64,000 nt of DNA from the NCBI GenBank assembly GCA_034003745.1, contig JAVEYA010000002.1:308-64307 (forward strand), given 5' to 3'. The translations under genes and the position numbers were made by a program. The notes below the pieces were generated by a model that was not told where the DNA came from, did no database searches, and was given only the letters and a program-made list of their open reading frames with translations. Origin of the DNA: Clostridia bacterium (lineage in GTDB: Bacteria; Bacillota; Peptococcia; DRI-13; PHAD01). Positions 15,520 to 64,000 of the stretch are shown in pieces (position 1 is the first letter of the stretch; every line of letters begins with the position of its first letter).

Positions 15520-15520
15520 C

Positions 15521-15602
15521 TGTCATTCTGAGATAGCGCAGCTATCGAAGAATCTGGCTTTTACAGCAATAGAAAGATCCTTCATTACATTCTTAAATGA
15601 CA
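15521..15602 (+). repeat. palindromic repeat, copy 2 (full, right arm degenerate)
   Basis: TGTCATTCTGAGATAGCGCAGCTATCGAAGAATC...GATCCTTC...AAATGACA. Starts 2 nt after the stop of ORF 15091..15519. Confidence 0.7.
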
Positions 15603-47701: not shown

Positions 47702-47817
47702 CTAAAATAGACTTTTCGTGTATAATATATTTTATAATACTTTAGCGGGCAGTGTGTGATATAATATCTTCTCAAATAGTTCCCGAAAATAACCCAAAGA
47801 TAGACGTGGTGAAGAAA

Positions 47818-49791
47818 ATGGAAAATAAATTCGTATTGAAATCCGAATACAAACCGCAGGGCGACCAGCCCCAGGCTATTGCGGCCCTGGTGCAAAGACT
47901 GCGGAAAAATGATAAAATGCTGACGCTGCTGGGGGCTACCGGGACGGGCAAGACGTATACAATGGCGCATGTCATCGAGCAGATTCAGAAACCCACGCTG
48001 GTGATTGCCCACAATAAGACGCTGGCGGCCCAGCTTTGCAGCGAGTTCAAGGAGTTTTTCCCCGACAATGCCGTGGAGTATTTCGTCAGCTATTATGACT
48101 ATTACCAGCCGGAAGCCTATGTACCGCAGACGGATACCTATATCGAAAAGGATTCTTCCATCAACGACGAAATCGAAAAGCTGCGCCACTCCGCCACAGC
48201 GGCCCTGCTGGAGCGCCGCGACGTCATTGTGGTGGCCAGTGTTTCCTGCATCTACGGCCTGGGCTCTCCGGAGGAATATAAGACCCAGACGCTGTCGCTC
48301 CGGGCCGGGCAGGTCATCGAGCGGGAAGCCATCTTGCGCCGTCTCATTGATATTCAGTATGACAGAAACGATATCAACCTGATCCGCGGGACCTTCCGCG
48401 CCCGTGGGGACGTTATCGATATTGTCCCGGTCTCTTACGGGGAGAATGCCATCCGCGTGGAATTATTCGGCGATGAGGTGGAACGTATTCTGGAAGTGGA
48501 TACCCTGACGGGGGAGATCACCGGACGGCGCCATCACATCAGCATCTTTCCGGCCAGCCACTATGTCACCGGCAAAGAGAAAATGGAAATCGCCCTGGTC
48601 AATATTGAGGCGGAACTGGCGGAGCGGCTGGCCTACCTGCGGGAGCGCGGCCGTCTCCTGGAGGCCCAGCGGCTGGAGATGCGCGCCAACTATGATATGG
48701 AAATGATGCGCGAAGTGGGTTTCTGTTCCGGTATTGAAAACTATTCCCGTCACCTGACCGGGCGCGCCCCGGGGGACTCCCCTTACACGCTCCTGGATTA
48801 TTTCCCGGGAGATTTTCTGACAGTTATCGACGAATCCCACCAGTCTGTGCCCCAGATCGGCGGCATGTACGAAGGGGACAAGTCCCGCAAGACGACTTTG
48901 ATTGAATTCGGCTTCCGCCTGCCTTCGGCCCTGGACAACAGGCCGCTCCGATTCGCGGAATTCGAGCAGCGAATCGGCCAGACCGTCTTTGTCTCGGCCA
49001 CGCCGGGCCCTTATGAAGTTCAGCACAGCAACGCGATTATCGAGCAGATTATCCGGCCCACCGGCCTGGTTGATCCGGAAATTTCGGTGCGGCCGATCCA
49101 GGGCCAGATTGACGACCTGCTGGCGGAAATCCAGGTCCGGGTCAACCGCAGTGAGCGGGTGCTCGTCACCACCTTGACCAAGAAAATGGCCGAAGATCTG
49201 ACCGATTACCTGGCGGAGATGGGTGTGAAGGTCCGTTACCTGCATTCCGAAATCAAAACTTTAGAACGGATGACGATCATCCGGGATTTGCGTCTGGGAG
49301 AATTTGACGTCCTGGTGGGTATTAACCTCCTGCGCGAGGGCCTGGACTTGCCGGAAGTCTCGTTGGTGGCGATCCTGGACGCCGATAAGGAAGGATTTCT
49401 GCGCTCGGAACGCTCCCTGATCCAGACGATTGGCCGGGCGGCGCGCAATGTCAACGGCCAGGTCATCATGTACGCCGATACCCGGACCGATTCCATGAAC
49501 AGGGCCATCGGCGAGACGGACCGCCGCCGCAAGCTGCAGCAGGAATTTAACCTGAAGCACCATATCCAGCCGCAGACGGTCAAGAAGGCTGTGCGCAACG
49601 TACTGGAGGCCACGGTCATCGCGGAAATGAAACCGGAATACCGCGTGGACGGTAAGAAGATACCCAAGAAGGAACTAAAAGAAATGATCACCCGCCTGGA
49701 GAAGGAAATGCGCGCCGCCTCCAAGGAATTGGCCTTCGAGCGGGCCGCGGAACTCCGGGACCTCATCATTGAAATGAAAGCAGAGCTGTAA
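47818..49791 (+). CDS. uvrB: excinuclease ABC subunit B
   Basis: Track ORF 47752..49791 trimmed to ATG 47818. [20 protein letters not shown]-terminal UVR domain FERAAELRD. Confidence 0.95.
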
Positions 49792-49830
49792 CACAGCAGA
49801 CATACAGTTTAAGCGGAAAGGGAAAGAAAC

Positions 49831-52650: not shown

Positions 52651-52675
52651 ATAGGCTATCGCAGAATAACCGATG

Positions 52676-52771
52676 TGTCATTCTGAGACCCTGTAATGGT
52701 CGAAGAATCTTAGAGATCGAAGTAATTTATCCTGATAATAATTAAGATCCTTCGCCCTGCTCAGGATGACA
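52676..52771 (+). repeat. palindromic repeat, copy 6 (full, long loop)
   Basis: TGTCATTCTGAGACCCTGTAATGGTCGAAGAATCTTA...TTAAGATCCTTCGCCCTGCTCAGGATGACA. Starts 26 nt after the uvrA stop. Confidence 0.85.
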
Positions 52772-52824
52772 GTCTGTTTTAAGACAGCCTCAAATCGGGA
52801 GGCAAAAAGCAGGAGATGGTATTT

Positions 52825-54675
52825 ATGCTGGAAGAAAAACTGAAGAGCCTGCCGGATAAGCCTGGCGTCTATCTGATGAAGGACGCGGAGGGGAAGATTA
52901 TCTATGTCGGCAAAGCCATCAGCTTAAAGAGCCGTGTCCGCTCTTATTTTTCTTCACAGCACGCCGGGATGCCCCGCACTCAGGCGCTGGTCAGGAGAAT
53001 CAGCGACCTGGAGTACATCCTCACGGATGGGGAGATAGAAGCGCTCATTTTAGAAAGTAATCTGATTAAAGAATACAAACCGAAGTATAATGTGCGCCTG
53101 ACCGACGATAAGAACTATCCCTTTCTGCGGGTGAGTACCCAGGAGGATTTCCCCCGCCTGGAAATCGTGCGCTCCCGCAAAAGGGACGGCGCCCGCTATT
53201 TCGGTCCCTATACCAATACCGGCGCAGTCAATGAAACCCTGCGCCTCCTGAAAAAGATTTTTCCCATCCGTTCCTGTAAGCAGCCCAATTTCGCGCGCCG
53301 GGACCGACCCTGCCTGAATTCCCATATTGCCCGGTGCGCCGCGCCCTGCTGCGGCCAGATCAGCAAAGAAGATTACCGCAAGATGATTGAGGAAATCCTC
53401 CTCTTCCTGGACGGCAGACAGGAGGATCTCTTCAAGAAGCTGCAGTCCCGCATGGAAGAGGCGGCGGAGAACCTGCGCTTCGAAAAGGCCGCGGAGCTGC
53501 GGGATCAGCTGCAGGCTATCCAAAGCGTGGTAGCGCGCCAGAAAATCGTCTCGGGCAAGTTCGTGGATATCGACGCGCTTCATTACGCCCGCAGCACCAA
53601 AATGACCTGTGTACAGATTTTCTTTATCCGGGAGGGCAAAGTGCTGGGACGGGACCGTTTCTTTCTGGAAGGGACGGAAGATACGACCGGGGAGGAAATC
53701 CTGGCTTCCTTCCTGAAGCAGTATTACAGCCAGGTGGACTATACGCCGGCGGAAATATTGCTGCCGGAAAAACTGGAAGAAGAAACGGTGCTGGAAAACT
53801 GGCTTTCGGAGAAAAGGGGCGCCAAGGTGCACTTGAAAGTCCCTAAAGCCGGGGAGAAACGAGCGCTGCTGGAGCTGGTGGGGCGTAACGCCGCTGAAAG
53901 CCTGCAAATGGAAGCGGGCGCCTTGGCGGCGCGTGAGCATAAAGGAAACGAAGCCCTGGAGCAGGTTGCCGCGGCCCTGAATCTGGACGCCAAACCCCAG
54001 CGTATCGAATGTTATGATATCTCCCATATCCAAGGGGCGGAAACCGTAGCCTCCATGGTGGTCTTCGAGCAGGGCCGGGCCGCTCCCGCCAAATACCGGC
54101 GCTTTAAAATCAGGACGGTCCAGGGGCCGGACGATTTCGCCAGTATGGCTGAAGTAATTGAGCGCCGTTTTACGAATGCCTTGGCCGGTGAGGAGAAATT
54201 CAAAGAGTTGCCGGATTTGGTCTTAATCGACGGCGGCAAGGGGCAGCTTTCCGCCGCTTGCGAAGCCATGGGGAAATTGGGTTTTGGACATATTCCCGCG
54301 GCTGGATTGGCCAAGGAGAATGAATGGCTGTTTATTCCCGCAAGTTCTATGCCGGTTATTTTGCCGCGCAATTCCCAGGGGCTGAATCTCCTGCAGCGCA
54401 TCCGGGACGAGGCGCACCGTTTCGCAGTGACCTACCATCGCCTGCTGCGGGGCCGGCGGAATCTGGCCTCTGTTCTGGACGAAATTCCCGGCGTTGGCCC
54501 GAAGCGGAAGAAGGACTTGCTCAAAGCTTTCGGCATGTCCTTAAAGAAGATGATGAACGCTTCTCCTGCGGAAATTGCAGAGATTGAGGGGATTAACGCG
54601 GAGTTGGCGAAGAAGATTTGGGAATATTTTCACCCCATGGAGACAGACAATAACGGAGAAGGAAAGGAGCCTTAG
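52825..54675 (+). CDS. uvrC: excinuclease ABC subunit C
   Basis: GIY-YIG N-terminus (PGVYLMKDAEGKIIYVGKA), UVR domain FEKAAELRDQ, C-terminal HhH. ATG 52825 lies 9 nt after AGGAG. Confidence 0.94.
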   Translation: MLEEKLKSLPDKPGVYLMKDAEGKIIYVGKAISLKSRVRSYFSSQHAGMPRTQALVRRISDLEYILTDGEIEALILESNLIKEYKPKYNVRLTDDKNYPFLRVSTQEDFPRLEIVRSRKRDGARYFGPYTNTGAVNETLRLLKKIFPIRSCKQPNFARRDRPCLNSHIARCAAPCCGQISKEDYRKMIEEILLFLDGRQEDLFKKLQSRMEEAAENLRFEKAAELRDQLQAIQSVVARQKIVSGKFVDIDALHYARSTKMTCVQIFFIREGKVLGRDRFFLEGTEDTTGEEILASFLKQYYSQVDYTPAEILLPEKLEEETVLENWLSEKRGAKVHLKVPKAGEKRALLELVGRNAAESLQMEAGALAAREHKGNEALEQVAAALNLDAKPQRIECYDISHIQGAETVASMVVFEQGRAAPAKYRRFKIRTVQGPDDFASMAEVIERRFTNALAGEEKFKELPDLVLIDGGKGQLSAACEAMGKLGFGHIPAAGLAKENEWLFIPASSMPVILPRNSQGLNLLQRIRDEAHRFAVTYHRLLRGRRNLASVLDEIPGVGPKRKKDLLKAFGMSLKKMMNASPAEIAEIEGINAELAKKIWEYFHPMETDNNGEGKEP

Positions 54676-54676
54676 T

Positions 54677-55492
54677 GTGCCTGATATCAAGCTTGTAGCA
54701 CTGGATCTGGATGATACGCTGCTGAGGACGGATTTGACCATTTCCCCCCGGGCCCAAGCCGCCATTAAGAAGGCGGTAGCGTTAGGGACAGCCGTCACTT
54801 TTGCCACCGGGAGGATGTATAAGTCGGCCCGCCCGTTCGCGGTGGAGCTGGGACTGGATTTGCCCCTGATTACCTATGTGGGCGCTCTGGTGAAATATGT
54901 GGACGGCCGCGAGGTTTATCACCGGCCGCTATCCCTGGAGACGGCCGGGAAGATAATTGATTTTCTGCTGCCCTATAAGTATCACATCAATATCTACATC
55001 AATGATGAATTATATATGGAGAAAGAATCGCCGGAAGGGGCGCGCTACGCCAATATTTCCAAGGTGCCGGTCCATTTTGTCAATGATTTGCGGGAGACCT
55101 TGCAGGCCTCGCCGGCGCCGACGAAGATTCTGGCTCTGTCCGGCGCGCCGGAGATCGCGGCTTTGCTGGCGGATATTCAGCAGGCCTTTGGCGGGCAGGT
55201 CCATATTACCCGTTCCAAACCCTACTTTTTGGAAATCTCCGATCTGGGGGCCACCAAAGGACAGGCTTTGGCGGGGCTGGCCCGGAGCCTGAATCTGACG
55301 GCCGGTCAGGTTATGGCTATCGGCGACAGCTGGAACGACCTGGATATGATTGAATACGCCGGAATAGGCGTGGCGATGGGCAATGCCGAGGCGGAAGTAA
55401 AGGCGGCGGCCCAATATATTACGTTGAATAATGACGACGACGGCGTGGCCGAGGCCATCGAGAAATTTGTTATAAACAGGAATATTAAATAG
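54677..55492 (+). CDS. Cof-type HAD-IIB phosphatase
   Basis: GTG 54677 lies 7 nt after GGAAAGGAG. LVALDLDDTLL motif I, GDSWNDLDM motif III. Confidence 0.8.
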   Translation: MPDIKLVALDLDDTLLRTDLTISPRAQAAIKKAVALGTAVTFATGRMYKSARPFAVELGLDLPLITYVGALVKYVDGREVYHRPLSLETAGKIIDFLLPYKYHINIYINDELYMEKESPEGARYANISKVPVHFVNDLRETLQASPAPTKILALSGAPEIAALLADIQQAFGGQVHITRSKPYFLEISDLGATKGQALAGLARSLNLTAGQVMAIGDSWNDLDMIEYAGIGVAMGNAEAEVKAAAQYITLNNDDDGVAEAIEKFVINRNIK

Positions 55493-55507
55493 ATGAATCA
55501 GTAAAGA

Positions 55508-55540
55508 TTAACAAAAAATAACAAAATTATTTTTTGTTAA
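55508..55540 (+). terminator. AT-rich hairpin terminator
   Basis: TTAACAAAAAAT-loop-ATTTTTTGTTAA, 12-bp stem. Confidence 0.5.
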
Positions 55541-55598
55541 GCAGGAAATAACTGTTATTCGTCGAAATATAGCAACATCAAGAAAAATGGAGGTAAAC

Positions 55599-55787
55599 AT
55601 GGGAGGGAAAGCTTTCGAGAAGAAGAACCTCGAACAGATTGAATTTCTCCGTTATGACTTGTACAAGCAGGTAAACAATAAAAGAGAAATGCTTTGTTCC
55701 AAGGAAGTGTATGAAGTCAGTAAGCGTCTGGACCAGCTGATTATCAAGCACATGTCTTCTCAGTCCGGGAAAGATCCGCAGCAATAG
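55599..55787 (+). CDS. Spo0E-like aspartyl-phosphate phosphatase
   Basis: IEFLRYDLYKQV...EVYEVSKRLDQLI pattern of the Spo0E family. ATG 55599 follows GGAGGT (track start 55587 overlaps the SD). Confidence 0.65.
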   Translation: MGGKAFEKKNLEQIEFLRYDLYKQVNNKREMLCSKEVYEVSKRLDQLIIKHMSSQSGKDPQQ

Positions 55788-55887
55788 ACATAGACGCGGA
55801 AATTAAGATTTAAACACGAATAAAAGAGGATATATCCCGAAAATGTCTAATTTACTATAATATTAGACACGGAAGGGATATTTTTTT

Positions 55888-56751
55888 ATGCGTAAATACA
55901 TAACAGGCATCATAATTATAGTGTGTGTATTCTTTCTGGCACTGGCGGCCGGACAGGCCACAGGCCTTTCTGTGACGCAGCTGTTTGCCGGAGAACAGGA
56001 AGGCTCTGCGGATGCCGTTGAGAATATGGATAATGTTGCTGAGCCTGCTGAGCCGGATTTACCCGAACCCCCGACGGAGCCGGAAGTGGAAATGCCGCCC
56101 GAATACCCGCAGGGGCTTGCCTATGAGGATGTATTGGCCCTGATTAAGGAGCCCAATAAGAAAATGACGGAGAACCCCGACGCCATCCTGGCGCTGGTCA
56201 ATAAAAACAATAACCTGGCGGCTGATTACGTTCCGGTCGGGATGGTTGAGCCCGCGGTGCCCTTTTCTTTCCAGAACGCCGATGAGAAACGCCTGATGCG
56301 GCCGGAGGCGGCGCAGGCCCTGGAGGAATTGTTTGCCGCCGCGACGGAAGCGGGGCATCAATTGGCCGCGGTTTCCGGTTTCCGCTCCTATGGGCGGCAG
56401 AAGTCCATTTTCTTGAATAATGTGCAGAAAAGCGGTTTCGAGCGGGCCAATTTCTTTTCCGCCCTGCCCGGACAAAGCGAGCACCAGACCGGCCTGGCCA
56501 TGGACGTCAGTTCCGCGGCGGTGGGCTATAAGCTGGTGACGAATTTCGGAGAGACGCCGGAGGGAAGCTGGCTGAACGATAATGCTCATATTTTCGGCTT
56601 TATTATCCGGTACCCGCAGGATAAGACCGACCTCACCGGCTACCAGTATGAACCCTGGCATCTCCGCTTCGTGGGTGTGGACGCGGCCGCGGAAATAAAT
56701 GCCCGGGGCTGGGTGCTGGAAGAATATCTGGCGGATTTGAACCAGACCTGA
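55888..56751 (+). CDS. VanY/M15B D-alanyl-D-alanine carboxypeptidase-like
   Basis: Signal/anchor N-terminus. SGFRSYGRQ, SEHQTGLAMD, EPWHLRFVG zinc-peptidase motifs. Confidence 0.85.
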   Translation: MRKYITGIIIIVCVFFLALAAGQATGLSVTQLFAGEQEGSADAVENMDNVAEPAEPDLPEPPTEPEVEMPPEYPQGLAYEDVLALIKEPNKKMTENPDAILALVNKNNNLAADYVPVGMVEPAVPFSFQNADEKRLMRPEAAQALEELFAAATEAGHQLAAVSGFRSYGRQKSIFLNNVQKSGFERANFFSALPGQSEHQTGLAMDVSSAAVGYKLVTNFGETPEGSWLNDNAHIFGFIIRYPQDKTDLTGYQYEPWHLRFVGVDAAAEINARGWVLEEYLADLNQT

Positions 56752-56793
56752 TTTTTTGGGACACGGGAAGCAAGGGGACGGTTCCTCTGCTTC

Positions 56794-56819
56794 TGTCATT
56801 CTGAGCTTGCGAAGAATCC
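56794..56819 (+). repeat. palindromic repeat, copy 7 (left arm only)
   Basis: TGTCATTCTGAGCTTGCGAAGAATCC. 43 nt after the VanY-like stop. Followed by the unrelated hairpin GGCCTTAAGAC-TGCGCG-GTCTTAAGGCC (56831-56858). Confidence 0.75.
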
Positions 56820-56857
56820 TGATAGATTTGGCCTTAAGACTGCGCGGTCTTAAGGCC

Positions 56858-56886
56858 TTGACTTTTCTAAAGGGAAGTAATATTAT
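56858..56886 (+). promoter_or_regulatory. sigma-A promoter of TIM-barrel gene
   Basis: TTGACT, 17 nt, TATTAT. Confidence 0.55.
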
Positions 56887-56914
56887 AATGGTAGTACCAA
56901 AGAAAGAGGAAAAA

Positions 56915-57730
56915 ATGAATAGGGAATTCAAACTGGGGATGTTCTCCTGGTTCGGCTATATCCTACCGCTGCCGGAACGTCTCCGTTTAATTCAGCAAGC
57001 AGGCTTTGCGTCCATTTCTCTGTGGTGGGAAGATGAGTATACGCCGGCGCTGATAAAAAAAGAGCATTTTGCCGCTCTGGTCCGGGAGGCCGGGCTTTTC
57101 TTCGAGAATATCCACGCGCCTTTTATAAATACCAATGATTTGTGGAGCGCCGATAAGGCAGCGCGGGAGAAGGCGGTGCAGCAGTATTTGACCTGGCTGG
57201 AGGACTGCGCCCAATATGCTATACCGCTCCTGGTCATGCACCTGACCGAAGGAGACGAACCGCCGGAGGCCAATAAATACGGACTGGAGAGCATGATGGC
57301 GTTGGTTCGTGGAGCGGAAGAACGCAGCGTAAAAATCGCCGTTGAAAATACCCGGCGCACCAACCATGTTTCTTTTGTGCTGAACGAGATTCCCTCGGAT
57401 TATTTAGGCTTATGCTATGACAGCTCTCACGCCCGGTTATGCCCGGATAGGGGGGAGACCCTGCTGAACCGGTTCGGCCAACGGTTGTTGGCGACGCATT
57501 TGTCGGATAATGACGGCAAAGAGGACAGACATTGGGTTCCAGGAAATGGAATAATTAACTGGAATTCTTTGATGAATAAGTTTATAATGAATAATTACAC
57601 AGGGTACTTAACTTTGGAAGTTGCGGCGGACCCGGAAGAACGCAAAGGACCGCCGGAAGTCTTCGTCCAGAAAGCGTTTCAAAGATTGACCGGAATCCGG
57701 CAGGCTAACCCGGCCGATCGGTCAAAGTAA
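56915..57730 (+). CDS. sugar phosphate isomerase/epimerase (xylose-isomerase-like TIM barrel)
   Basis: Track ORF 56756..57730 trimmed to ATG 56915, because the upstream part reads through the repeat and the promoter. AVENT and CYDSSHA metal-site-like motifs. Confidence 0.78.
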   Translation: MNREFKLGMFSWFGYILPLPERLRLIQQAGFASISLWWEDEYTPALIKKEHFAALVREAGLFFENIHAPFINTNDLWSADKAAREKAVQQYLTWLEDCAQYAIPLLVMHLTEGDEPPEANKYGLESMMALVRGAEERSVKIAVENTRRTNHVSFVLNEIPSDYLGLCYDSSHARLCPDRGETLLNRFGQRLLATHLSDNDGKEDRHWVPGNGIINWNSLMNKFIMNNYTGYLTLEVAADPEERKGPPEVFVQKAFQRLTGIRQANPADRSK

Positions 57731-57803
57731 AAAATACAATTGAATAGCAGTAGGAATTGTCAGAAGCGTAACACAGCAATTCGACGCTTATCACAATTCC
57801 GTA

Positions 57804-57957
57804 AGGCAACAGGTGCTCGTCAGAGATAATAGGGAACCGGGTGAGAGTCCCGGACGGACGCGCCGCTGTAAATGGGGAGGGCTTTTCCAAGGACCACTGG
57901 AGCAATCCGGGAAGGGGAAAAGACCGCTGATCCTAAGTCAGAAAACCTGCCTGTCGC
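57804..57957 (+). promoter_or_regulatory. cobalamin (B12) riboswitch aptamer
   Basis: AATAGGGAACCGGGTGAGAGTCCCGG, GCCGCTGTAA, CCACTGG...GGGAAGG and the B12 box AAGTCAGAAAACCTGCC. P1 pairs GGCAACAGG (57804-57812) with CCTGTCGCC (57949-57957). Confidence 0.85.
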
Positions 57958-58021
57958 CGGAGTGTATTTAACCTTCGCGAGAGAGGGGGAACGCTGATGT
58001 CCTACATTTGGGTAAAAGCAT

Positions 58022-58058
58022 GGCCTTAGTTTCTCGTCACGAGGAACTAAGGCTTTTT
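58022..58058 (+). terminator. riboswitch expression-platform terminator
   Basis: GGCCTTAGTTTCTCG-TCA-CGAGGAACTAAGGC followed by TTTTTT, about 50 nt before the ATG. Confidence 0.75.
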
Positions 58059-58108
58059 TACTGACGGACACTAAGAGAAAACAATTGAAAACAGGGGGTA
58101 AAAGTAAG

Positions 58109-61100
58109 ATGAATTTGTTTACCTTGAGAAAAAGCCGTGGGCTGTTGGCAGGATTGTTGCTGATGACCCTGTTGGCGACAATGATATTTCCCGGCGCAGT
58201 CTTGGCGGCCGAACCTTACGATACGTATAACAATTTAGCTCTGCAGGCGGTACGCAACAATTACGGATTGTACCAGGGCGGAACTCCTGTTACTTCCAGT
58301 CATTATACAAACTTTGGCGCTTATGGCGCTTATGTGCTGGACAAAGCCGGTATCAACCTGACGGAATGGGCTCATGAAGGGACGAGCTTTGCCGATAGTA
58401 TATCTGCCCTGATAGATGAAACGATAGCTGGTCCATCTTCCGCTAACCGTGTGGCTTATGAATATTTAGCGGCTAAGGAAATGGGAGACAGTAGAGCAGA
58501 CTCCTTACTGGTTATTCTGACTAACAGACAGACTACCCGCGGAGATGGCTCTTTTGACGATAATATTTATAGCAATATGCCCGCATTTGACGCCTTAGCC
58601 CGGACCGGGGATATCGCCGAACTTGATACGGCGGCAGCTATAATATATCTCTTGGGAACTCAGGATGATGCCAGTGGAGCGTGGGGTTCACCCGGATATC
58701 CGGATATTGCCGTAACAGCCCAGGCGGTGCGGGCCTTGCTGGCTTTAGAACCTCTGGCCGGGGGGGACGCCCTTAGCGTTCAGACAGCTATCGGTAATGG
58801 TGTGAGTTGGTTGCAAAGTTGTCAGCAGGATGACGGCAGCTTTTCTGCCCCGAGTTGGGACCCGCTGATTGATACTGTGGAAGCCCTGCTGACGATGAAG
58901 GCTTTGGGTTTGTCGCTGGATACCTGGAAAGAAGGTGGCAAGAGCGCCGTTGATTACATGCGGGACGATGCGTTAAATGATGATGGTACGTTTGGCGGCA
59001 GCGGCAACCTATATGATAACACTATGGCCCTGGAAGCATACCTGCTTTTGGACGCTGCCATACCGGAAGATAAGACCTTGGCTTTAACCATTTCACCCAA
59101 GACAGTGGATTTGGCGATCGATGAAGAGCAGGCTTTTACTGCTGAAGCCTTTTTAGCCAATGGTTCAAAAAAGGATGTGACCAGTGACGCTGATTGGGCT
59201 GTAAGTGATCCGGCTATTGCAGAATTGACGGAGGATGGGGACAGCGTTACAGTTGGCCGTATGATTGCCGGTGATTTCCAGGTTACGGCTGCTTATCAGG
59301 GGCTCAGCGCCGCGGTTTCTGTAGGGCTTGCTGCAGACCCTAGTCTGGCTGGGGTAACGGTTAGAATTGAGGGACCGAATTATACTATTCTGCCTGATAC
59401 AGTTATTTATGCTCCGCCTGGCTCCAGTTATACTCAGGTACTGGTGGCCGGCGCAGATGATAATGACTATACTGTGGATGAGACCGGAGGGTTCGTAAAT
59501 GCCATTAACGGAATAGGGGCTCCCGTTTATTGGCTGGTAGCTCCTTGGCAAAGCAGCGGCTATAATAATGGTGATTGGTTTACGATGTCGGCTAACGGGT
59601 CCTCCAATACCGGCGTAGCGGTATTATCTGCTTCTGCAAGGCAACCTGGTGAATCCATCACCGTGACCGTAACCTATAAAGACAATGAAGATATGAGCGG
59701 CGACCCGGTTGCGGGGGATACAGCAGATGGTATGCCGGTGGAGGGAGCTAAGGTAATCTATTATACGGCGGCAAATTACCAAACTCCTACGGAAGCAGGG
59801 ATTACGGATGCCAATGGGCAGTTAACCTTTTCTATCGGAACCGCCGGAACCTATTATGTGGCCGCGGATAAGACAAACACGGGTGTTTGGCCGGATCCAG
59901 ACGATGGTCTAGTCAGAACGGCAGCCCAGACAGTTGTGGTCAGCAGCGGAGGCGGACATACGTCCGGGACTCCCGTCCGTATTGAGGTCGTTGGAAAAAA
60001 TGGGAAGACCTTGTATGCCCGACGTACCGTTTATTTGGAAGGTGAGGATTACAGAAATGCCAGGGGAGATAAAATTGGCTTAAGTCCGGTGGAGGCGCTG
60101 GATAAAACGGGTCTGAGCTACGACTACGATTCCATCAGCTATATTCATACGATTGCCGGACTGGCGCCGGAGGGTCTGAACGGCTGGATGGTCAAAGTCA
60201 ATGGGACTTCATTGAAAGATGCGGCATATAAAGAAAAATTATCCTCCAATGACCTGGTCGTCTGGTTCTACAGCACCGATTCGGGCAATCTCGCCGGTAT
60301 GAGTGGTCCGAATCCCCAGCAGAATAAGACCGGCGATCAGTTGATCACGGATGCGCTGAAAGATAATAAAGAAGTCGTCATTGATCTGGCAAAACAGGCC
60401 AACGGTTTGTTGCAACTAAAGCCGGAAACGGTACAAAAACTGGCGGAGGCGCAAAAGCCCCTGAATATAAGCGGTAAGGGACTGGAAATAGCCATGACGC
60501 CGCAAGCCCTGGGTACTGAACAAGTCCAGGCCGCTTTAGAGGGGGGCGCTGCTGCTTTGCAGCTTGGCATCAAAGAAGTCACTTCCGCGGAAAAACAGGA
60601 AATCCTGACCGGCGCTAAGCTGGGCCAGTCCACCGGCATTTTCGAGATTGGCGGCAAGATTTTCGACCTCTCTGCTGAACTGATCAGCACAGACAGCGAG
60701 GGCAATCAGATAACAGAAAGAATCAGCAGTTTCGGCGAACCGGTTCCGGTGACCTTAGACCTGTCCGGGCTGAATCTGACGGGGGAAGATAGTGCTCAGC
60801 TGACGGCGGTACGCTATGAAAAAGACGCCGCGGGGAAGATCATTCCGGTAAAATTAGGCGGAAGTTATGATCCTGAAACAAAGGTATTCACCTTCTATAC
60901 GGAGAAGTTCAGCTATTACGGTATTGCCAAAGCAGAGAAATTGGTGACGGTGAGCATGGGTATCGACAAGCTGACTGTCACGATTAACGGTAAGCGGGGC
61001 TATACCGATGCCCCCCCTGTCTTACTGAATAACCGCACCATGGCGCCCCTGCGCTTTATCGCCGAGACCCTGGGCGCCCAGGTACAATGGCTGGCGGAGA

Positions 61101-61291
61101 GCCGGACGGCGGAAATCAGGTTGGATGGACAGACCCTGCGGCTGGTGGCGGAGGAACTTGTACCGGGAATGGATACGCCTGCCACCATCAAAAGCGCGCG
61201 CCTACTCGTACCGTTACGCTATATCTCCGAAGCCCTGGGAGCCAGGGTAACCTGGTTCGCGGCTGAACAACGCATCGAGCTGGTGTACTGA
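58109..61291 (+). CDS. secreted multidomain protein: prenyltransferase-like alpha/alpha repeats + Big_2 + 2x DUF4430 + CarboxypepD_reg-like + Cu-amine-oxidase-N-like C-terminus
   Basis: ATG 58109 lies 9 nt after AGGGGGT. Signal peptide ends ...AVLA/AEPY. Repeats of the QDDxGxW/F type occur four times. Ig-like segment at ~59080-59340. DUF4430 signatures (VRIE..G...GWMVKVNG...DLVVWFY) at ~59355-59600 and ~59970-60275. C-terminal LNNRTMAPLRFIAETLGAQVQW / LLVPLRYISEALGARVTW repeats. Confidence 0.85.
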   Translation: MNLFTLRKSRGLLAGLLLMTLLATMIFPGAVLAAEPYDTYNNLALQAVRNNYGLYQGGTPVTSSHYTNFGAYGAYVLDKAGINLTEWAHEGTSFADSISALIDETIAGPSSANRVAYEYLAAKEMGDSRADSLLVILTNRQTTRGDGSFDDNIYSNMPAFDALARTGDIAELDTAAAIIYLLGTQDDASGAWGSPGYPDIAVTAQAVRALLALEPLAGGDALSVQTAIGNGVSWLQSCQQDDGSFSAPSWDPLIDTVEALLTMKALGLSLDTWKEGGKSAVDYMRDDALNDDGTFGGSGNLYDNTMALEAYLLLDAAIPEDKTLALTISPKTVDLAIDEEQAFTAEAFLANGSKKDVTSDADWAVSDPAIAELTEDGDSVTVGRMIAGDFQVTAAYQGLSAAVSVGLAADPSLAGVTVRIEGPNYTILPDTVIYAPPGSSYTQVLVAGADDNDYTVDETGGFVNAINGIGAPVYWLVAPWQSSGYNNGDWFTMSANGSSNTGVAVLSASARQPGESITVTVTYKDNEDMSGDPVAGDTADGMPVEGAKVIYYTAANYQTPTEAGITDANGQLTFSIGTAGTYYVAADKTNTGVWPDPDDGLVRTAAQTVVVSSGGGHTSGTPVRIEVVGKNGKTLYARRTVYLEGEDYRNARGDKIGLSPVEALDKTGLSYDYDSISYIHTIAGLAPEGLNGWMVKVNGTSLKDAAYKEKLSSNDLVVWFYSTDSGNLAGMSGPNPQQNKTGDQLITDALKDNKEVVIDLAKQANGLLQLKPETVQKLAEAQKPLNISGKGLEIAMTPQALGTEQVQAALEGGAAALQLGIKEVTSAEKQEILTGAKLGQSTGIFEIGGKIFDLSAELISTDSEGNQITERISSFGEPVPVTLDLSGLNLTGEDSAQLTAVRYEKDAAGKIIPVKLGGSYDPETKVFTFYTEKFSYYGIAKAEKLVTVSMGIDKLTVTINGKRGYTDAPPVLLNNRTMAPLRFIAETLGAQVQWLAESRTAEIRLDGQTLRLVAEELVPGMDTPATIKSARLLVPLRYISEALGARVTWFAAEQRIELVY

Positions 61292-61325: not shown

Positions 61326-62294
61326 ATGAGAAAATTTATTTTTCCATTATTACTAAGTATTTTGCTGCTTGTTCCTGCCTGCGGAGGGGAGGGGGGAAGC
61401 AACCCCGCCTCCCCCGCGGTTGGAAACATTACCTATCTGATTACGCAAAATTACGGCGCTGAGACGGTGCTGGAAGAGGCGGTATCCTATCAGCCTGACC
61501 GAAGCGTAATGGAGGGCCTCTTTGCCACAAAAGCTGAAGTGGAGACTGCTTACGGCGGTGACTTCGTCAGCGTCATCAACGGACTCAGCACGCAGAACAG
61601 CGGTCTCACCGGGGAGAGATACGACTGGTTCTATTATGTCAATGGGATTTTTGCCGACGTCGGCGCGCTGGATTATCTGCTCCTGCCCGGGGATCAGATC
61701 TGGTGGGATTATCATCCCTGGAAAGTTTCCCAGGGGACGCCCGCTGTCGTCGGCTGTTGGCCGGAGCCTTTTTTGCATGGTTTCCGGGGCAAGGTGAAGG
61801 AGACGGTTGTTTTGCCTGTACCCTCCATGGCGGAGCAGGGCAAGAAACTGCAAGCTGCTCTGCAGGAACTGGGCGTCCAATCTACGGCTGTACGGGAGCT
61901 GGATGGAACGTCGGCGGAAGAATTGGGAGCAAGGAAGGGTCCCATTATCGCGGTGGGGGCCTGGCCCGAACTGGCCCGGTATAAGTGGCTGGCGGAATTC
62001 AATGAAGCCTGGCGGCGCAACGGCACATTCCTGCATTTCAGCGCGGACGGCCTGGAATTACTGGACCACAGCGGGCAAGTGGTTAGGACTGTTCAAGGTT
62101 CGGCCGGCGTAATCATGGCCACTGCCGAGGGGAACGGGGACGACAGTCCTTTGTGGATAGTTACGGGCAGCGACGCGCAGGGGACGGCAGCTGCCCTGGA
62201 TATATTAATCGAGCAGCCGGAGAAAATAAAGGCGGCCTACAGTATCGTCATCCTGCCGGATGAGGTTATGAAGCTGCCGGCAATGAGGGAATAG
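61326..62294 (+). CDS. DUF4430 (transcobalamin-beta-like) lipoprotein
   Basis: Lipobox LLVPAC. YDWFYYVNGIFADVGALDYLLLPGDQIWWDYHPW signature. Confidence 0.8.
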   Translation: MRKFIFPLLLSILLLVPACGGEGGSNPASPAVGNITYLITQNYGAETVLEEAVSYQPDRSVMEGLFATKAEVETAYGGDFVSVINGLSTQNSGLTGERYDWFYYVNGIFADVGALDYLLLPGDQIWWDYHPWKVSQGTPAVVGCWPEPFLHGFRGKVKETVVLPVPSMAEQGKKLQAALQELGVQSTAVRELDGTSAEELGARKGPIIAVGAWPELARYKWLAEFNEAWRRNGTFLHFSADGLELLDHSGQVVRTVQGSAGVIMATAEGNGDDSPLWIVTGSDAQGTAAALDILIEQPEKIKAAYSIVILPDEVMKLPAMRE

Positions 62295-62301
62295 CAAAGG
62301 C

Positions 62302-63216
62302 ATGTACGCTTACCAAGAAAAAAATACGCTCTTTCAAAGCCTGCGTACGGAAGTGGCCTTGCTTTACGTAGCCATTCTGGTCTTCCTTGCGCTCTTTTTC
62401 TCGCATCCTTTGTTTTTACTGGCTTTATTGCTTGCGCTGAATGTAGTAATCTTTTCGGCGGGAATTATGCGGGAATGGCTGGTTTACCTGAAATTCACCC
62501 TGCTTTTGACGGCGTTGATTATTCTGGTTAATACGCTGTTCGTACAGGAAGGGGCGACGGTGCTCTTGCGCAGCCCGCGGCTTCCGCTTATCGGCACGGT
62601 CCGCATTACCTGGGAAGCGTTGTGCTTTGGCGTAGGGATGGGCCTGCGGCTCGTCGTGATGACCGGTGCGTTTTGCCTGTTGACGTATGCCGTACATCCC
62701 GACCGCATCCTGCAGACATTGGGCGGAGGCAACAGCAAAATCCTGCTGACATTGAGTATTTCCATACGCCTGCTGCCGCTGGCGGCCGCCGACTTTACGC
62801 GGATTACGGAAGCACAGCGCTGCCGGGGCGTCAATTTTCAGGTCCGGGGCCTGGACGCCAAAATTAGAAAATATATTCCGGTTTTCAATACCGTTTTGCT
62901 GTCCAGTTTGGAACGTTCTTTTCAGTTGGCGGAGTCGCTGCAGTCCAGGGGCTACGGGGCCGGACGCAGAACTTTCCTGCGCGAATCCTTGTGGCGTATC
63001 CGGGATTACCTGGTGCTGGCGGCGCTGCTTTTAGCCGTAGTCTATGCGGTACTGTTGTTCTTCACAGGCTGGGGTGTCTACAGCTACTATCCCCGGCTGC
63101 AGCCGGTTACCGGGGAGGAAATGATTCTGGCTGCCGGGCTGGCGCTGTTTTTCCTGTTTCCGGCAATCTTGAATTGGGGGTGGGTCCGTTGGCGCTTCTT
63201 GAGATTGAAAATCTGA
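62302..63216 (+). CDS. ecfT: ECF transporter transmembrane (T) component, CbiQ family
   Basis: Polytopic. Two coupling-helix motifs of the AxxxRG type (EAQRCRG, ESLQSRGY). Confidence 0.85.
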   Translation: MYAYQEKNTLFQSLRTEVALLYVAILVFLALFFSHPLFLLALLLALNVVIFSAGIMREWLVYLKFTLLLTALIILVNTLFVQEGATVLLRSPRLPLIGTVRITWEALCFGVGMGLRLVVMTGAFCLLTYAVHPDRILQTLGGGNSKILLTLSISIRLLPLAAADFTRITEAQRCRGVNFQVRGLDAKIRKYIPVFNTVLLSSLERSFQLAESLQSRGYGAGRRTFLRESLWRIRDYLVLAALLLAVVYAVLLFFTGWGVYSYYPRLQPVTGEEMILAAGLALFFLFPAILNWGWVRWRFLRLKI

Positions 63217-64000
63217 CGTATCATTACCCGGATGAAAACCGGTCCGCCCTTGACCGAATCAATCTGACGGTCCAAGAAGGAGAATTTATACTGCTGGCCG
63301 GCGGTTCCGGCAGCGGCAAATCCTCGCTGGTACGGGCCATGGCCGGACTTATCCCGGACTTCTACGGCGGAAAAATCGCCGGAGCCGTCAGGTTGGACGG
63401 CATGGATATCAAAGCCCTGGCGCGTTCTGAGGTGGTGCGGAAAGTCGGCATGGTCTTTCAGGACCCGGAAAGTCAGCTGGTAATGACCACCGTGGAGCAG
63501 GAGCTGGCTTTCGGCATGGAGAATCTGGGCCTTGCTCCGGAACTGATGAAACGGCGCATCATGGAAGTTTCCGGGGCGCTTTCCCTGCACGGGTATTTAC
63601 AGGAAAACATTCCCCGGCTTTCCGGGGGACTGAAGCAGAAAACGCTGCTGGCTTCCATCCTGGCCATGCAGCCGGAGATTTTAATTCTGGATGAGCCCAC
63701 TTCACAGCTGGACCCGGTAGCCGGGGAAGAAATTCTCACAGTGGTACGCCGGCTAAATGAGGATAACGGGATTACGGTAATCCTGATTGAACAGCGGTTG
63801 GAGCGCTGCTTCCACCTGGCGGACCGTATCGTCGTCATGTCGGAGGGCCGTATTATTCATGACAGCCCGGACCGCGCCGCCGCAGCCGCCTGGGCTGTGG
63901 CTAAGGACAGTCCTTTTTTGCCGCCGCTGGCCCGGCTGTTTGCGGCCACCGGCATACAACCCCTCCCGCTGACGGTGAAAGAAGGCCGTAAAGCGCTGAA
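63189..64000 (+). CDS. ecfA: ECF/ABC ATPase (A) component, 5' partial (runs off window)
   Basis: Hand translation LEIENLTYHYP...GGSGSGKSS (Walker A)...LSGGLKQK...ILILDEPTSQLD. Start is TTG 63189 (8 nt after GGGGG) or GTG 63180. Not in the track because no stop occurs before the window end. Confidence 0.85.
   Translation, partial: MALLEIENLTYHYPDENRSALDRINLTVQEGEFILLAGGSGSGKSSLVRAMAGLIPDFYGGKIAGAVRLDGMDIKALARSEVVRKVGMVFQDPESQLVMTTVEQELAFGMENLGLAPELMKRRIMEVSGALSLHGYLQENIPRLSGGLKQKTLLASILAMQPEILILDEPTSQLDPVAGEEILTVVRRLNEDNGITVILIEQRLERCFHLADRIVVMSEGRIIHDSPDRAAAAAWAVAKDSPFLPPLARLFAATGIQPLPLTVKEGRKAL

What the first reader, a model, noticed from the sequence alone, without database searches (positions are those of the whole stretch)
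61326..64000. DUF4430 lipoprotein followed by ECF T and A components with no S-component in between
Seen: a lipoprotein (lipobox LLVPAC) consists of a strong DUF4430 signature plus a ~170-aa C-terminal domain of unknown type. It is followed 7 nt later by a CbiQ-type T component (304 aa, two AxxxRG-type coupling motifs). An overlapping ABC ATPase gene runs off the window. Established: ECF importers normally use a small integral-membrane S-component (e.g. CbrT for cobalamin) rather than an extracytoplasmic binding protein. Inference: either the S-component lies downstream beyond nt 64000 or elsewhere in the genome (group II style). Alternatively, the lipoprotein and the giant surface protein form a hand-over chain feeding an ECF module. 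Such an architecture would be unusual for this transporter class.
Basis: partly seen in the sequence, partly recalled or inferred. Interest (0 to 1): 0.6.

Follow-up and report, generated by a model that had tools for sequence, protein, structure and literature searches.

The report
B12 ECF importer with surface binders
This is a vitamin-B12-riboswitch-controlled operon for an ECF-type B12 importer; its membrane S-component is encoded about 2.2 kb past the window's end, and the lipoprotein is a transcobalamin-like helper protein of a type already linked to such transporters, so the locus is an ordinary member of a known but biochemically little-studied class.

Summary
Window 61326-62294 encodes a lipoprotein with a DUF4430 domain and an unannotated 185-aa C-terminal domain. 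An EcfT gene follows 7 nt later, then an overlapping ABC ATPase gene that runs off the window.

The missing S-component is an effect of where the window ends. A public contig identical over 11.5 kb continues with the rest of a fused double ATPase and a secreted alpha/alpha-toroid protein. It then encodes a 236-aa S-component whose only solved relative is CbrT, the cobalamin S-component (E 3e-10).

A cobalamin riboswitch and a terminator hairpin precede the six tightly packed genes. The order lipoprotein-T-AA'-S recurs in 56 of 65 related loci from several phyla, and 19 of 27 informative loci carry the riboswitch.

The architecture is already in the literature:
- Transcobalamin-like surface proteins in CbiQ/CbiO operons were described in 2007.
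- The gene next to the characterised L. delbrueckii cbrT ("cbrS") is a DUF4430 protein.
- A hand-over model was proposed for L. sakei in 2019.

Two details may be new. The C-terminal domain is specific to this family and resembles a BcsB domain. In Actinomycetota the S-component is fused to the toroid domain. Verdict: new member of a known kind, modest interest. Hand-over to the S-component remains plausible but untested.

The parts
57794..57968 (+). Cobalamin riboswitch aptamer (RF00174) heading the operon
   Evidence: Rfam cmscan gives 107.2 bits against a gathering score of 31.5, E 7e-26, with the full model matched. The same element precedes the operon in 18 other related loci.
58022..58054 (+). 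Terminator-like hairpin followed by a T run, between the aptamer and the first start codon; the likely expression platform of an OFF switch
   Evidence: The stem has 15 pairs (7 G-C), a 3-nt loop and a TTTTT tail, at L001 5539-5571, which equals window 58022-58054. Its role as expression platform is inferred.
58085..61291 (+). 1068-aa secreted surface protein. Its parts are a signal peptide, a weak alpha/alpha-toroid region (res ~165-304), Ig-like regions, a DUF4430/SLBB domain (res ~630-733) and two C-terminal Cu_amine_oxidN1 domains
   Evidence: Pfam scores: Cu_amine_oxidN1 E 1.4e-33; DUF4430 E 4.7e-10 (40 bits, cut-off 23.8); Prenyltrans 18 bits, below its cut-off. One N-terminal hydrophobic segment lies at residues 24-42. 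A large toroid+DUF4430 ORF sits in the same position in most related loci.
61326..61382 (+). Signal peptide and lipobox (LLVPA|C19) of the lipoprotein
   Evidence: Read directly from the sequence. Cys19 is conserved in at least 90% of the family.
61425..61721 (+). DUF4430 / SLBB beta-grasp domain of the lipoprotein (res ~34-132), resembling the transcobalamin beta-domain
   Evidence: Pfam PF14478, E 3.3e-15. The AF2 model has pLDDT 92.5. Foldseek matches 3u7z (E 1.6e-4), haptocorrin 4kki (rmsd 2.8 A over 107 columns), the TC beta-domain 5no0/5np4 (TMt 0.65-0.67) and intrinsic factor.
61737..62291 (+). Family-specific C-terminal alpha/beta domain of the lipoprotein (res 138-322), with no Pfam family
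   Evidence: No Pfam or NCBIfam hit. The AF2 model has pLDDT 94.1. The best fold matches are BcsB (E 5e-6, TMq 0.54-0.57, 13% identity), then the N-terminal domains of GH115/GH67/GH20/GH84 enzymes. The domain is found in 438 50%-identity clusters, practically always at the C-terminus of 300-440-aa proteins.
62302..63216 (+). EcfT (CbiQ-type T component, CbrU-like), 304 aa
   Evidence: Pfam CbiQ E 4.7e-15. PDB EcfT chains 4huq_T, 4hzu_T and 5d3m_D match with E 7e-8 to 2.5e-6. Motifs AQRCRG (171) and SLQSRG (212) are present.
63189..64000 (+). 5' part of a fused double ABC ATPase gene (EcfAA', 573 aa); it continues to window-equivalent 64910
   Evidence: The gene call is on the identical contig at L001 10706-12427. 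There are two ABC_tran domains, E 4.9e-58. NCBIfam ECF_ATPase_1 scores 382 bits (cut-off 315) and ECF_ATPase_2 scores 357 bits (cut-off 330). Beyond the window, a toroid protein lies at L001 12417-13757 and the CbrT-like S-component at L001 13747-14457.

Best explanation
The finding is the middle of a six-gene, cobalamin-riboswitch-controlled operon for a dedicated ECF-type corrinoid importer of the CbrT family.

Gene order:
- riboswitch plus terminator
- 1068-aa wall-associated surface protein (alpha/alpha toroid + DUF4430)
- DUF4430 lipoprotein
- EcfT
- fused EcfAA' ATPase
- 446-aa secreted alpha/alpha-toroid protein
- CbrT-like S-component

Shown: the gene identities, the riboswitch, the operon packing, the presence of the S-component, and the conservation of this arrangement.

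Inferred mechanism: when B12 is scarce the riboswitch lets the operon be transcribed. The extracytoplasmic proteins carry the two halves of a transcobalamin-like binder. The beta-half (DUF4430) is on the membrane-tethered lipoprotein and on the giant protein. The alpha-half (toroid) is on the giant and the 446-aa protein. Together they capture corrinoids in the cell envelope and raise the local concentration at the membrane, probably passing the ligand to the S-component. CbrT-T-AA' then translocates it using ATP, as shown for L. delbrueckii ECF-CbrT.

The lipoprotein is therefore an elaborated CbrS-type accessory binder, not a substitute for the S-component. Its extra C-terminal domain most likely serves docking or assembly.
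For: S-component:
- L001 matches the window with 0 mismatches over 11,517 nt and carries AA', the toroid protein and the S-component downstream.
- The S-component matches Pfam ECF-ribofla_trS at 34 bits, above its cut-off.
- Its only PDB hit at E<=10 is CbrT, 6fnp_A, at E 3.1e-10 over 166 residues.
- It has 1388 homologues, generally annotated 'ECF transporter S component'.

Regulation:
- RF00174 scores 107 bits upstream of the first gene, followed by a 15-bp terminator hairpin.
- The riboswitch is present in 19 of 27 informative related loci. These include Clostridia, Solirubrobacterales, Acidobacteriota and Ignavibacteriales.

Operon packing: gaps or overlaps are 34 nt, 7 nt, -28 nt, -11 nt and -11 nt.

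Synteny: 56 of 65 loci with enough flank show L-T-AA'-S in order, and two more have the block just upstream.

Binder identity: DUF4430 is the C-terminal domain of transcobalamins (PMC4350170). The model superposes on the haptocorrin, TC and IF beta-domains. The 446-aa protein matches Prenyltrans at 56 bits.

Physical link: in 13 of the 65 loci (plus L045) the S-component is fused, through an extra TM helix, to the toroid domain.

Precedents:
- PMC1796856 described such operons and predicted B12 scavenging.
- cbrS next to the characterised cbrT is a DUF4430 protein.
- ECF-CbrT transports Cbl and Cbi with ATP, and hemin does not compete (PMC5997447).
Against: - No binding or transport data exist for any protein of this operon type.
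- Similarity of the lipoprotein to transcobalamin is at fold and Pfam level only. The family profile finds no PDB sequence, and pairwise similarity to CbrS is weak (E 0.017).
- I did not check whether cobalamin-contacting residues are conserved.
- ECF-CbrT works without any DUF4430 protein in liposomes and in E. coli, so a direct hand-over is not required for transport.
- Seven loci, mostly Dehalococcoidales, show no riboswitch within reach.
- A paralogous branch of the same two-domain lipoprotein sits in a MoxR/DUF58 context with no transporter, so the family is not tied exclusively to ECF systems.
- The L. sakei homologous system was claimed to take up heme.
Confidence: 0.75

Rival explanations
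1. An S-component-less ECF transporter: the DUF4430 lipoprotein, fed by the giant surface protein, acts as an extracytoplasmic substrate-binding protein that replaces the integral-membrane S-component.
For: Within the 64-kb window no S-component is encoded between or after the lipoprotein, T and A genes.
Against: The identical contig encodes a CbrT-like S-component 2.2 kb beyond the window end, in the same operon. An S-component follows AA' in 56 of 65 related loci. T components are only known to work by toppling an S-component.
Confidence: 0.02
2. The transporter imports something other than corrinoids, such as heme (as claimed for the homologous L. sakei lsa1836-1840 system), another tetrapyrrole, or cobalt ions (as CbiMNQO does).
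For: The L. sakei preprint reports reduced heme uptake in a deletion mutant and docks heme into the transcobalamin-like pair. The T component is of the 'CbiQ' type, and B12 riboswitches also control cobalt transporters.
Against: The S-component is CbrT-like, with no CbiM or CbiN signal. Hemin does not compete for ECF-CbrT. The binders have the transcobalamin beta-domain fold. Cobalamin riboswitches are found in 19 of 27 loci. In lactobacilli, cbrS-cbrT sit between nrdJ (B12-dependent RNR) and pduO.
Confidence: 0.06
3. The extracytoplasmic proteins are co-regulated but do not deliver ligand to the transporter. They might sequester or store corrinoids at the surface to compete with neighbours, select or remodel particular cobamides, or act structurally through the BcsB-like domain.
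For: ECF-CbrT needs no helper in vitro. The same two-domain lipoprotein family also occurs without any transporter, in a MoxR/DUF58 context. The nearest fold relatives of the C-domain are structural domains of BcsB and glycosidases.
Against: The lipoprotein gene is placed immediately before ecfT, with a gap of a few nt or an overlap, across several phyla. The toroid and S genes overlap here and are fused into one polypeptide in Actinomycetota, which argues for physical proximity of the binder parts and the S-component.
Confidence: 0.17

Closest known systems
ECF-CbrT of Lactobacillus delbrueckii (PDB 6FNP; Santos et al. 2018, PMC5997447) with its neighbour gene cbrS
   Same: The S-component is homologous to CbrT, which is its only PDB hit (E 3e-10). 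A DUF4430 secreted protein is encoded next to the transporter genes: cbrS is PF14478. The context is cobalamin-related.
   Different: In L. delbrueckii, CbrT shares a general ECF module encoded elsewhere (group II). Here T and a fused AA' are dedicated and in the same operon (group I, the CbrTUV type predicted by Rodionov 2009 as cited). CbrS is a 136-149-aa single-domain secreted protein. Here the DUF4430 protein is a 322-aa lipoprotein with an extra domain, and two large toroid-bearing surface proteins are added. This S-component has ~55 extra N-terminal residues.
Bacterial transcobalamin-like SLBB surface-protein operons (Burroughs, Balaji, Iyer & Aravind 2007, PMC1796856)
   Same: That paper describes secreted SLBB (=DUF4430) proteins fused to alpha/alpha toroids and surface-anchoring domains. 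[quoted passage not shown] Desulfotomaculum examples are given. This is essentially the present operon type.
   Different: The paper predates the ECF concept and, in the passages read, does not mention the S-component, the riboswitch, the lipoprotein's C-terminal domain or the S-toroid fusion.
Lactobacillus sakei lsa1836-1840 (Verplaetse et al. 2019, bioRxiv 10.1101/864751)
   Same: EcfS, EcfAA' and EcfT are encoded together with separate secreted transcobalamin beta-like and alpha-like proteins. The authors explicitly propose capture by the alpha/beta pair and transfer to EcfS.
   Different: The claimed substrate is heme. The proteins are small and single-domain. No riboswitch is reported in the passages read.
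Mammalian transcobalamin / intrinsic factor / haptocorrin
   Same: They combine an alpha6/alpha6 toroid with a beta-grasp DUF4430 domain that sandwich cobalamin. The lipoprotein's N-domain superposes on their beta-domains.
   Different: In mammals both halves are in one soluble chain that is taken up by receptor-mediated endocytosis. Here the halves are spread over three envelope-anchored proteins and linked to an ABC-type importer. Sequence similarity is not detectable by profile search.
NikKMLQO nickel ECF systems (Zhang et al. 2009, PMC2667541)
   Same: This is a precedent for ECF-type transporters that carry additional, non-core components encoded in the operon.
   Different: The proteins (NikK/NikL) and the substrate are unrelated. 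The giant protein has only a sub-threshold DUF4198 hit.
BtuG-type surface lipoproteins of Bacteroides (PMC6143338, title and abstract seen)
   Same: The functional analogy is that surface-exposed lipoproteins capture B12 ahead of a membrane transporter.
   Different: The protein family differs and those proteins sit in an outer-membrane, TonB-dependent system. I did not compare them here.

Membership tests
ECF transporter, dedicated (group I) module | T component with EcfT/CbiQ fold and two coupling-helix xRG motifs | tested here: met
   Pfam CbiQ E 4.7e-15. PDB EcfT chains match at E 7e-8. AQRCRG lies at residue 171 and SLQSRG at 212.
ECF transporter, dedicated (group I) module | Two ABC ATPase domains (A and A') | tested here: met
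   The fused 573-aa protein has two ABC_tran domains. NCBIfam ECF_ATPase_1 and ECF_ATPase_2 both score above their cut-offs. Walker A motifs lie at residues 38 and 345. Only the first ~270 residues are inside the window.
ECF transporter, dedicated (group I) module | Small integral-membrane S-component encoded with the module | tested here: met
   L001 13747-14457 encodes 236 aa and matches PF07155 at 34 bits against a cut-off of 26.7. It is in the same operon on a contig identical to the window.
CbrT family (cobalamin-specific S-component) | Sequence homology to the characterised CbrT | tested here: met
   6fnp_A is the sole PDB hit, at E 3.1e-10 with residues 65-230 aligned to 10-175. No other solved S-component is matched even at E<=10.
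CbrT family (cobalamin-specific S-component) | Cobalamin-linked genomic context or regulation | tested here: met
   RF00174 lies upstream, as it does in 19 of 27 informative related loci.
CbrT family (cobalamin-specific S-component) | Binds and transports cobalamin/cobinamide | not testable with these tools
   This needs binding or uptake assays. It has been shown only for L. delbrueckii ECF-CbrT (PMC5997447).
DUF4430 / transcobalamin-like SLBB accessory protein (CbrS-like) | PF14478 match above the gathering score | tested here: met
   56.7 bits against a cut-off of 23.8, E 3.3e-15.
DUF4430 / transcobalamin-like SLBB accessory protein (CbrS-like) | Beta-grasp fold of the transcobalamin beta-domain | tested here: met
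   The AF2 model has pLDDT 92.5. Foldseek matches 3u7z, 4kki, 5no0, 5np4, 2bb6 and 2pmv with probability 1.0.
DUF4430 / transcobalamin-like SLBB accessory protein (CbrS-like) | Extracytoplasmic location | tested here: met
   The protein has a signal peptide with a lipobox, and the Cys is conserved. This is a prediction from sequence only.
DUF4430 / transcobalamin-like SLBB accessory protein (CbrS-like) | Encoded next to cbrT or ECF genes | tested here: met
   The gene is adjacent to ecfT here and in 56 of 65 loci. cbrS in L. delbrueckii and L. helveticus is PF14478 and lies directly upstream of cbrT.
DUF4430 / transcobalamin-like SLBB accessory protein (CbrS-like) | Binds a corrinoid | not testable with these tools
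   No assay was possible, and I did not check conservation of ligand-contact residues.
Full transcobalamin-type binder (toroid + beta-domain in one chain) | Alpha/alpha toroid and DUF4430 in the same polypeptide | tested here: inconclusive
   In the giant protein, DUF4430 is significant (40 bits) but the toroid is sub-threshold (Prenyltrans 18 bits against 26.5). The locus-derived toroid profile does hit it. The lipoprotein has no toroid. The 446-aa protein has a toroid (56 bits) but no DUF4430.
Binding-protein-dependent type II ABC importer (BtuCD-F type) | Periplasmic-binding-protein fold SBP and BtuC-type permease | tested here: not met
   The lipoprotein's fold matches are TC beta-domain and BcsB-like domains, with no PBP fold among the hits at E<=0.001. 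The membrane partner is EcfT.
CbiMNQO / NikMNQO metal ECF transporter | CbiM/NikM S-component with CbiN/NikN (or NikK/NikL) | tested here: not met
   No CbiM or CbiN family hit appears in any of the six proteins, and the S-component is CbrT-like.

The most novel reading that the evidence does not exclude
The lipoprotein (beta-half), together with the toroid protein (alpha-half), forms a cobalamin-dependent split-transcobalamin complex that docks on the CbrT-like S-component and hands the corrinoid over. The family-specific BcsB-like C-domain would serve as the docking or assembly module. This would be a true substrate-binding-protein stage in an ECF transporter, a class defined in textbooks by the absence of such proteins. 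The S-component/toroid fusion proteins of Solirubrobacterales would be the natural covalent version of this complex.
Probability: 0.35. Interest if true: 0.6.

Novelty: new member of a known kind. Interest (0 to 1): 0.3.

Why it matters
ECF transporters are usually described as working without extracytoplasmic binding proteins. Cobalamin ECF systems are a consistent, widespread exception at the genomic level. They occur in hundreds of genomes, in several phyla, usually under a B12 riboswitch. Yet no DUF4430 or toroid helper has been characterised biochemically.

This locus adds nothing unique to that picture. The survey it prompted gives three concrete handles:
- CbrS of the model system is a DUF4430 protein.
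- The lipoprotein class has a defined, foldable extra domain.
- Natural S-component/toroid fusions exist that could be used for structural work.

B12 capture by Gram-positive anaerobes and by Dehalococcoidia matters for corrinoid cross-feeding in microbial communities.

Tried and rejected
- A profile of the whole lipoprotein family against PDB sequences found nothing at E<=1. The link to transcobalamin is thus at Pfam and fold level, not direct sequence.
- I planned a covariance model from six riboswitches. The MAFFT alignment was poor, so I dropped it and used Rfam scans on subsets of loci. Only 27 loci were informative for the riboswitch.
- The first iterated S-component HMM became contaminated by toroid sequence because of the natural S-toroid fusions. 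I rebuilt it from unfused members.
- The automatic synteny count missed four high-GC loci because long spurious ORFs shifted the called T start. I corrected this by reading.
- Rodionov et al. 2009 (PMC2612444) is not held. Statements about CbrTUV rest on how PMC5997447 cites it and on my own recollection.
- Considered and rejected: a CbiMNQO cobalt transporter (no CbiM/CbiN), a BtuF-type SBP (wrong fold), and the C-domain as a MetH-type B12-binding domain. For the last, no such fold hit appeared and His151 in the PEPFLHG motif is not invariant.
Full report
**What is in the window**

Window 61326-62294 (+) encodes a 322-aa protein that starts MRKFIFPLLLSILLLVPAC.
- Pfam finds DUF4430 (PF14478) at residues 60-130, with E 3.3e-15 and 56.7 bits against a cut-off of 23.8. 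Nothing else matches, and NCBIfam finds nothing.
- Seven nucleotides after its stop codon, 62302-63216 encodes a 304-aa CbiQ-type protein (E 4.7e-15). This protein matches solved EcfT chains (4huq_T, E 6.9e-8) and carries AQRCRG (residue 171) and SLQSRG (residue 212).
- An ABC ATPase gene starts at 63189, overlaps the end of T by 28 nt and leaves the window. It has Walker A, LSGG and Walker B motifs.

**What lies beyond the window**

The lipoprotein sequence occurs on a 16.9-kb public contig (L001). Its 11,517 nt of overlap with the window contain no mismatch. A sequence identical to the S-component is also recorded on a contig of 69,996 bp. L001 shows three things downstream.
- The ATPase is a fused double ATPase of 573 aa. 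It has two ABC_tran domains, and ECF_ATPase_1 and ECF_ATPase_2 score 382 and 357 bits, both above their cut-offs.
- Next, overlapping by 11 nt, comes a 446-aa secreted protein. It has a prenyltransferase-type alpha/alpha toroid (56 bits) and two Cu_amine_oxidN1 domains.
- Next, again overlapping by 11 nt, comes a 236-aa membrane protein at window-equivalent 66230-66940. It matches Pfam ECF-ribofla_trS above its cut-off.

Searched against all PDB sequences at E<=10, this last protein hits a single chain. That chain is 6fnp_A, the CbrT S-component of the L. delbrueckii cobalamin ECF transporter, at E 3.1e-10 over 166 residues. Its 1388 homologues are generally annotated 'ECF transporter S component'. 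The absence of an S-component is therefore an effect of where the window ends.

**Regulation and operon structure**

An Rfam scan of the whole window gives one hit: a complete cobalamin riboswitch aptamer at 57794-57968 (+), at 107 bits. Between it and the TTG start of the 1068-aa gene at 58085 lies a 15-bp hairpin followed by a T run, at window 58022-58054. I read this as the terminator of an OFF switch; that reading is an inference.

The six genes are separated by 34 nt, 7 nt, -28 nt, -11 nt and -11 nt. After the S gene comes a promoter-like site and unrelated CoA-transferase genes.

The 1068-aa first gene product has:
- a signal peptide
- a sub-threshold toroid region
- a significant DUF4430 domain (40 bits)
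- two C-terminal Cu_amine_oxidN1 domains

**Conservation**

The lipoprotein has 322 full-length homologues in the word-indexed search. A scan of GTDB species genomes found at least 597 encoding stretches, of which 80 loci were kept. I called ORFs in these loci and classified them with HMMs iterated from the six query proteins.

Of 65 loci with at least 5.5 kb downstream of the lipoprotein gene:
- 52 were counted automatically as lipoprotein-T-AA'-S in order.
- Four more (L053, L067, L076, L081) have the same order but were missed because of ORF-calling in high-GC DNA.
- Two (L035, L073) have T-AA'-S immediately upstream of the lipoprotein gene.
- Seven have no ECF genes.

The S gene starts a median of 2.6 kb after the lipoprotein gene. 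It comes either directly after AA' or after a toroid gene. A large toroid+DUF4430 protein usually precedes the lipoprotein gene. The taxa are mainly Clostridia (Desulfotomaculia, Peptococcia, Syntrophomonadia), Dehalococcoidales and Solirubrobacterales/Thermoleophilia, with single Acidobacteriota, Ignavibacteriales, Planctomycetia and Omnitrophota.

Rfam scans of subsets found a cobalamin riboswitch ahead of the operon in 19 of 27 loci with enough upstream sequence:
- All 11 Clostridia loci tested with at least 2 kb upstream were positive.
- Four Solirubrobacterales loci were positive, as were L044, L052 and L073.
- Four Dehalococcoidia loci and L023, L045 and L057 were negative.
- L063 was ambiguous.

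**The lipoprotein's two domains**

AlphaFold2 with a 38-sequence alignment gives a confident two-domain model (pLDDT 92.5, pTM 0.87).

The N-domain (residues ~34-132) matches these structures with Foldseek probability 1.0:
- the DUF4430 crystal structure 3u7z
- haptocorrin (4kki; rmsd 2.8 A over 107 columns, 20% identity)
- the isolated beta-domain of human transcobalamin (5no0, 5np4; TMt 0.65-0.67)
- bovine TC and intrinsic factor

This agrees with DUF4430 being the C-terminal domain of transcobalamins (PMC4350170). At sequence level the link is not detectable by a family profile.

The C-domain (residues 138-322) was modelled alone (pLDDT 94.1). It is an alpha/beta domain whose best solved relatives are a domain of the cellulose-synthase subunit BcsB (E 5e-6, TMq 0.54-0.57, 13% identity). 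Next come the N-terminal domains of GH115, GH67, GH20 and GH84 enzymes. An exhaustive phmmer search of 1.84 billion representatives finds it in 438 clusters. In practically every case it forms the C-terminal half of a 300-440-aa protein. It is therefore a domain specific to this lipoprotein family. Its function is unknown, and I infer docking or assembly. His151 in the conserved PEPFLHG linker is not invariant, which argues against a role as a cobalt ligand.

**A natural fusion**

In 13 of the 65 loci, and also in L045, all from Solirubrobacterales, Thermoleophilia or Coriobacteriia, the S-component and the toroid are one ORF. The layout is:
- S-core at residues ~2-199
- an extra hydrophobic helix at ~216-242
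- the toroid at ~230-530
- a low-complexity linker
- a C-terminal hydrophobic helix

Pfam on L055 confirms both ECF_trnsprt and squalene-cyclase-type signals in the one protein. Together with the 11-nt toroid/S gene overlap in the present locus, this suggests the toroid works physically next to the S-component. I did not find this fusion mentioned in the papers I read.

**What was already known**

- Burroughs et al. 2007 (PMC1796856) defined the transcobalamin-like SLBB clade. [quoted passage not shown] They also noted linkage to CbiO-like and CbiQ-like genes, and predicted B12 scavenging. Desulfotomaculum was one of their examples.
- Santos et al. 2018 (PMC5997447) showed that ECF-CbrT alone imports cobalamin and cobinamide with ATP, and that hemin does not compete. 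They also noted that cbrT sits in an nrdJ-cbrS-cbrT-pduO cluster.
- I retrieved that cluster for a 99%-identical CbrT and for L. helveticus. The gene directly upstream of cbrT is a 136-149-aa secreted DUF4430 protein. The accessory protein of the model system therefore belongs to the same Pfam family as the lipoprotein here, although pairwise similarity is weak (E 0.017).
- Verplaetse et al. 2019 (10.1101/864751) described EcfS-AA'-T plus separate transcobalamin beta-like and alpha-like secreted proteins in L. sakei. They proposed capture and transfer to EcfS, but claimed heme as the substrate.
- NikKMLQO systems (PMC2667541) are another precedent for extra components in ECF-type transporters.

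**Interpretation**

The locus is a complete, dedicated, riboswitch-controlled CbrT-type corrinoid ECF importer. It is decorated with three envelope proteins that between them carry the alpha and beta halves of a transcobalamin-like binder.

Shown:
- the gene identities
- the riboswitch
- the operon packing
- the presence of the S-component
- wide conservation of the arrangement
- the fold of the lipoprotein
- the fusion

Inferred:
- The helpers bind corrinoids.
- They pass corrinoids to the S-component.
- The C-domain mediates docking.

Because ECF-CbrT works without helpers in vitro, the helpers are accessory. They are likely to matter at very low corrinoid concentrations or within a thick cell envelope.

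The reading that the lipoprotein replaces the S-component is refuted. A non-corrinoid substrate is unlikely. A surface-sequestration role without delivery remains a real alternative. It is supported by a paralogous lipoprotein branch that sits in a MoxR/DUF58 context with no transporter.

**Verdict**

This is a new member of a known kind, predicted from genomics but biochemically uncharacterised. Interest is about 0.3. The most novel reading still open is a true binding-protein hand-over stage in an ECF transporter (probability about 0.35, interest if true about 0.6).

Noticed in passing
L045 5535-7106; L053 13328-15229; L055 13384-15327; L059 13433-15277; L066 13384-15243; L077 13210-15204 and others: In Solirubrobacterales, Thermoleophilia and Coriobacteriia genomes the CbrT-like S-component is fused in one ORF to an extra TM helix, an alpha/alpha-toroid domain and a C-terminal TM helix. 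This amounts to a covalent S-component/'half-transcobalamin' protein.
   Followed up: partly
L025 9680-16234; L031 9551-16272; L040 8887-16289; L043 9524-16236 (also L033, L046): A paralogous branch of the two-domain DUF4430 lipoprotein (395-481 aa) is not next to ECF genes. It lies in a conserved cluster with a ~680-aa secreted protein, two membrane proteins, a MoxR-type AAA_3 ATPase and a DUF58 protein. The function is unknown.
   Followed up: partly
L082 96-545; L083 4589-4999; L084 4589-4999: The 'cbrS' gene of the nrdJ-cbrS-cbrT-pduO cluster of L. delbrueckii and L. helveticus encodes a small secreted, Lys-rich DUF4430 protein. The characterised ECF-CbrT system therefore has an untested transcobalamin-beta-like partner.
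   Followed up: yes
L001 13747-14457 (window-equivalent 66230-66940) and window 62302-63216: Compared with solved homologues, the S-component has ~55 extra N-terminal residues with one or two additional hydrophobic helices. The EcfT has ~48 extra C-terminal residues with an additional hydrophobic helix (residues 274-292). Either could be a contact site for the extracytoplasmic partners, which is speculation.
   Followed up: no
L024 5631-5822 and 5986-6169; L010 369-546 and 1999-2262: L024 has two cobalamin riboswitch aptamers in tandem upstream of the operon. L010 has two riboswitches 1.5 kb apart, the second carrying a large insertion.
   Followed up: no
L028, L036, L039, L042 (Dehalococcoidales/Dehalococcoidaceae): These corrinoid-dependent organisms have the same lipoprotein-T-AA'-S operon but no detectable cobalamin riboswitch within up to 10 kb upstream. 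L028 has a Moco riboswitch at 15436-15561 downstream.
   Followed up: no
window 59351-59593 (giant protein residues ~423-503): A possible second, degenerate SLBB/DUF4430-like segment (GGFVNAINGI...W) lies upstream of the significant DUF4430 domain. There is only a weak local HMM signal (domain E 0.09).
   Followed up: partly
window 47752-57730: Upstream of the riboswitch lies ordinary housekeeping context. It includes uvrA (49831-52650), uvrC (52816-54675), a HAD hydrolase, a Spo0E-like ORF, a VanY-type peptidase and an AP-endonuclease-2 family gene. All are on the + strand and unrelated to the operon.
   Followed up: no
L001 14444-14472 and 14523-16311 (window-equivalent ~66927-68794): A near-consensus promoter-like site (TTGACA-17-TAATAT) overlaps the end of the S-component gene and precedes two CoA-transferase genes. 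This suggests the B12 operon ends at the S gene, although no clear terminator was found.
   Followed up: no
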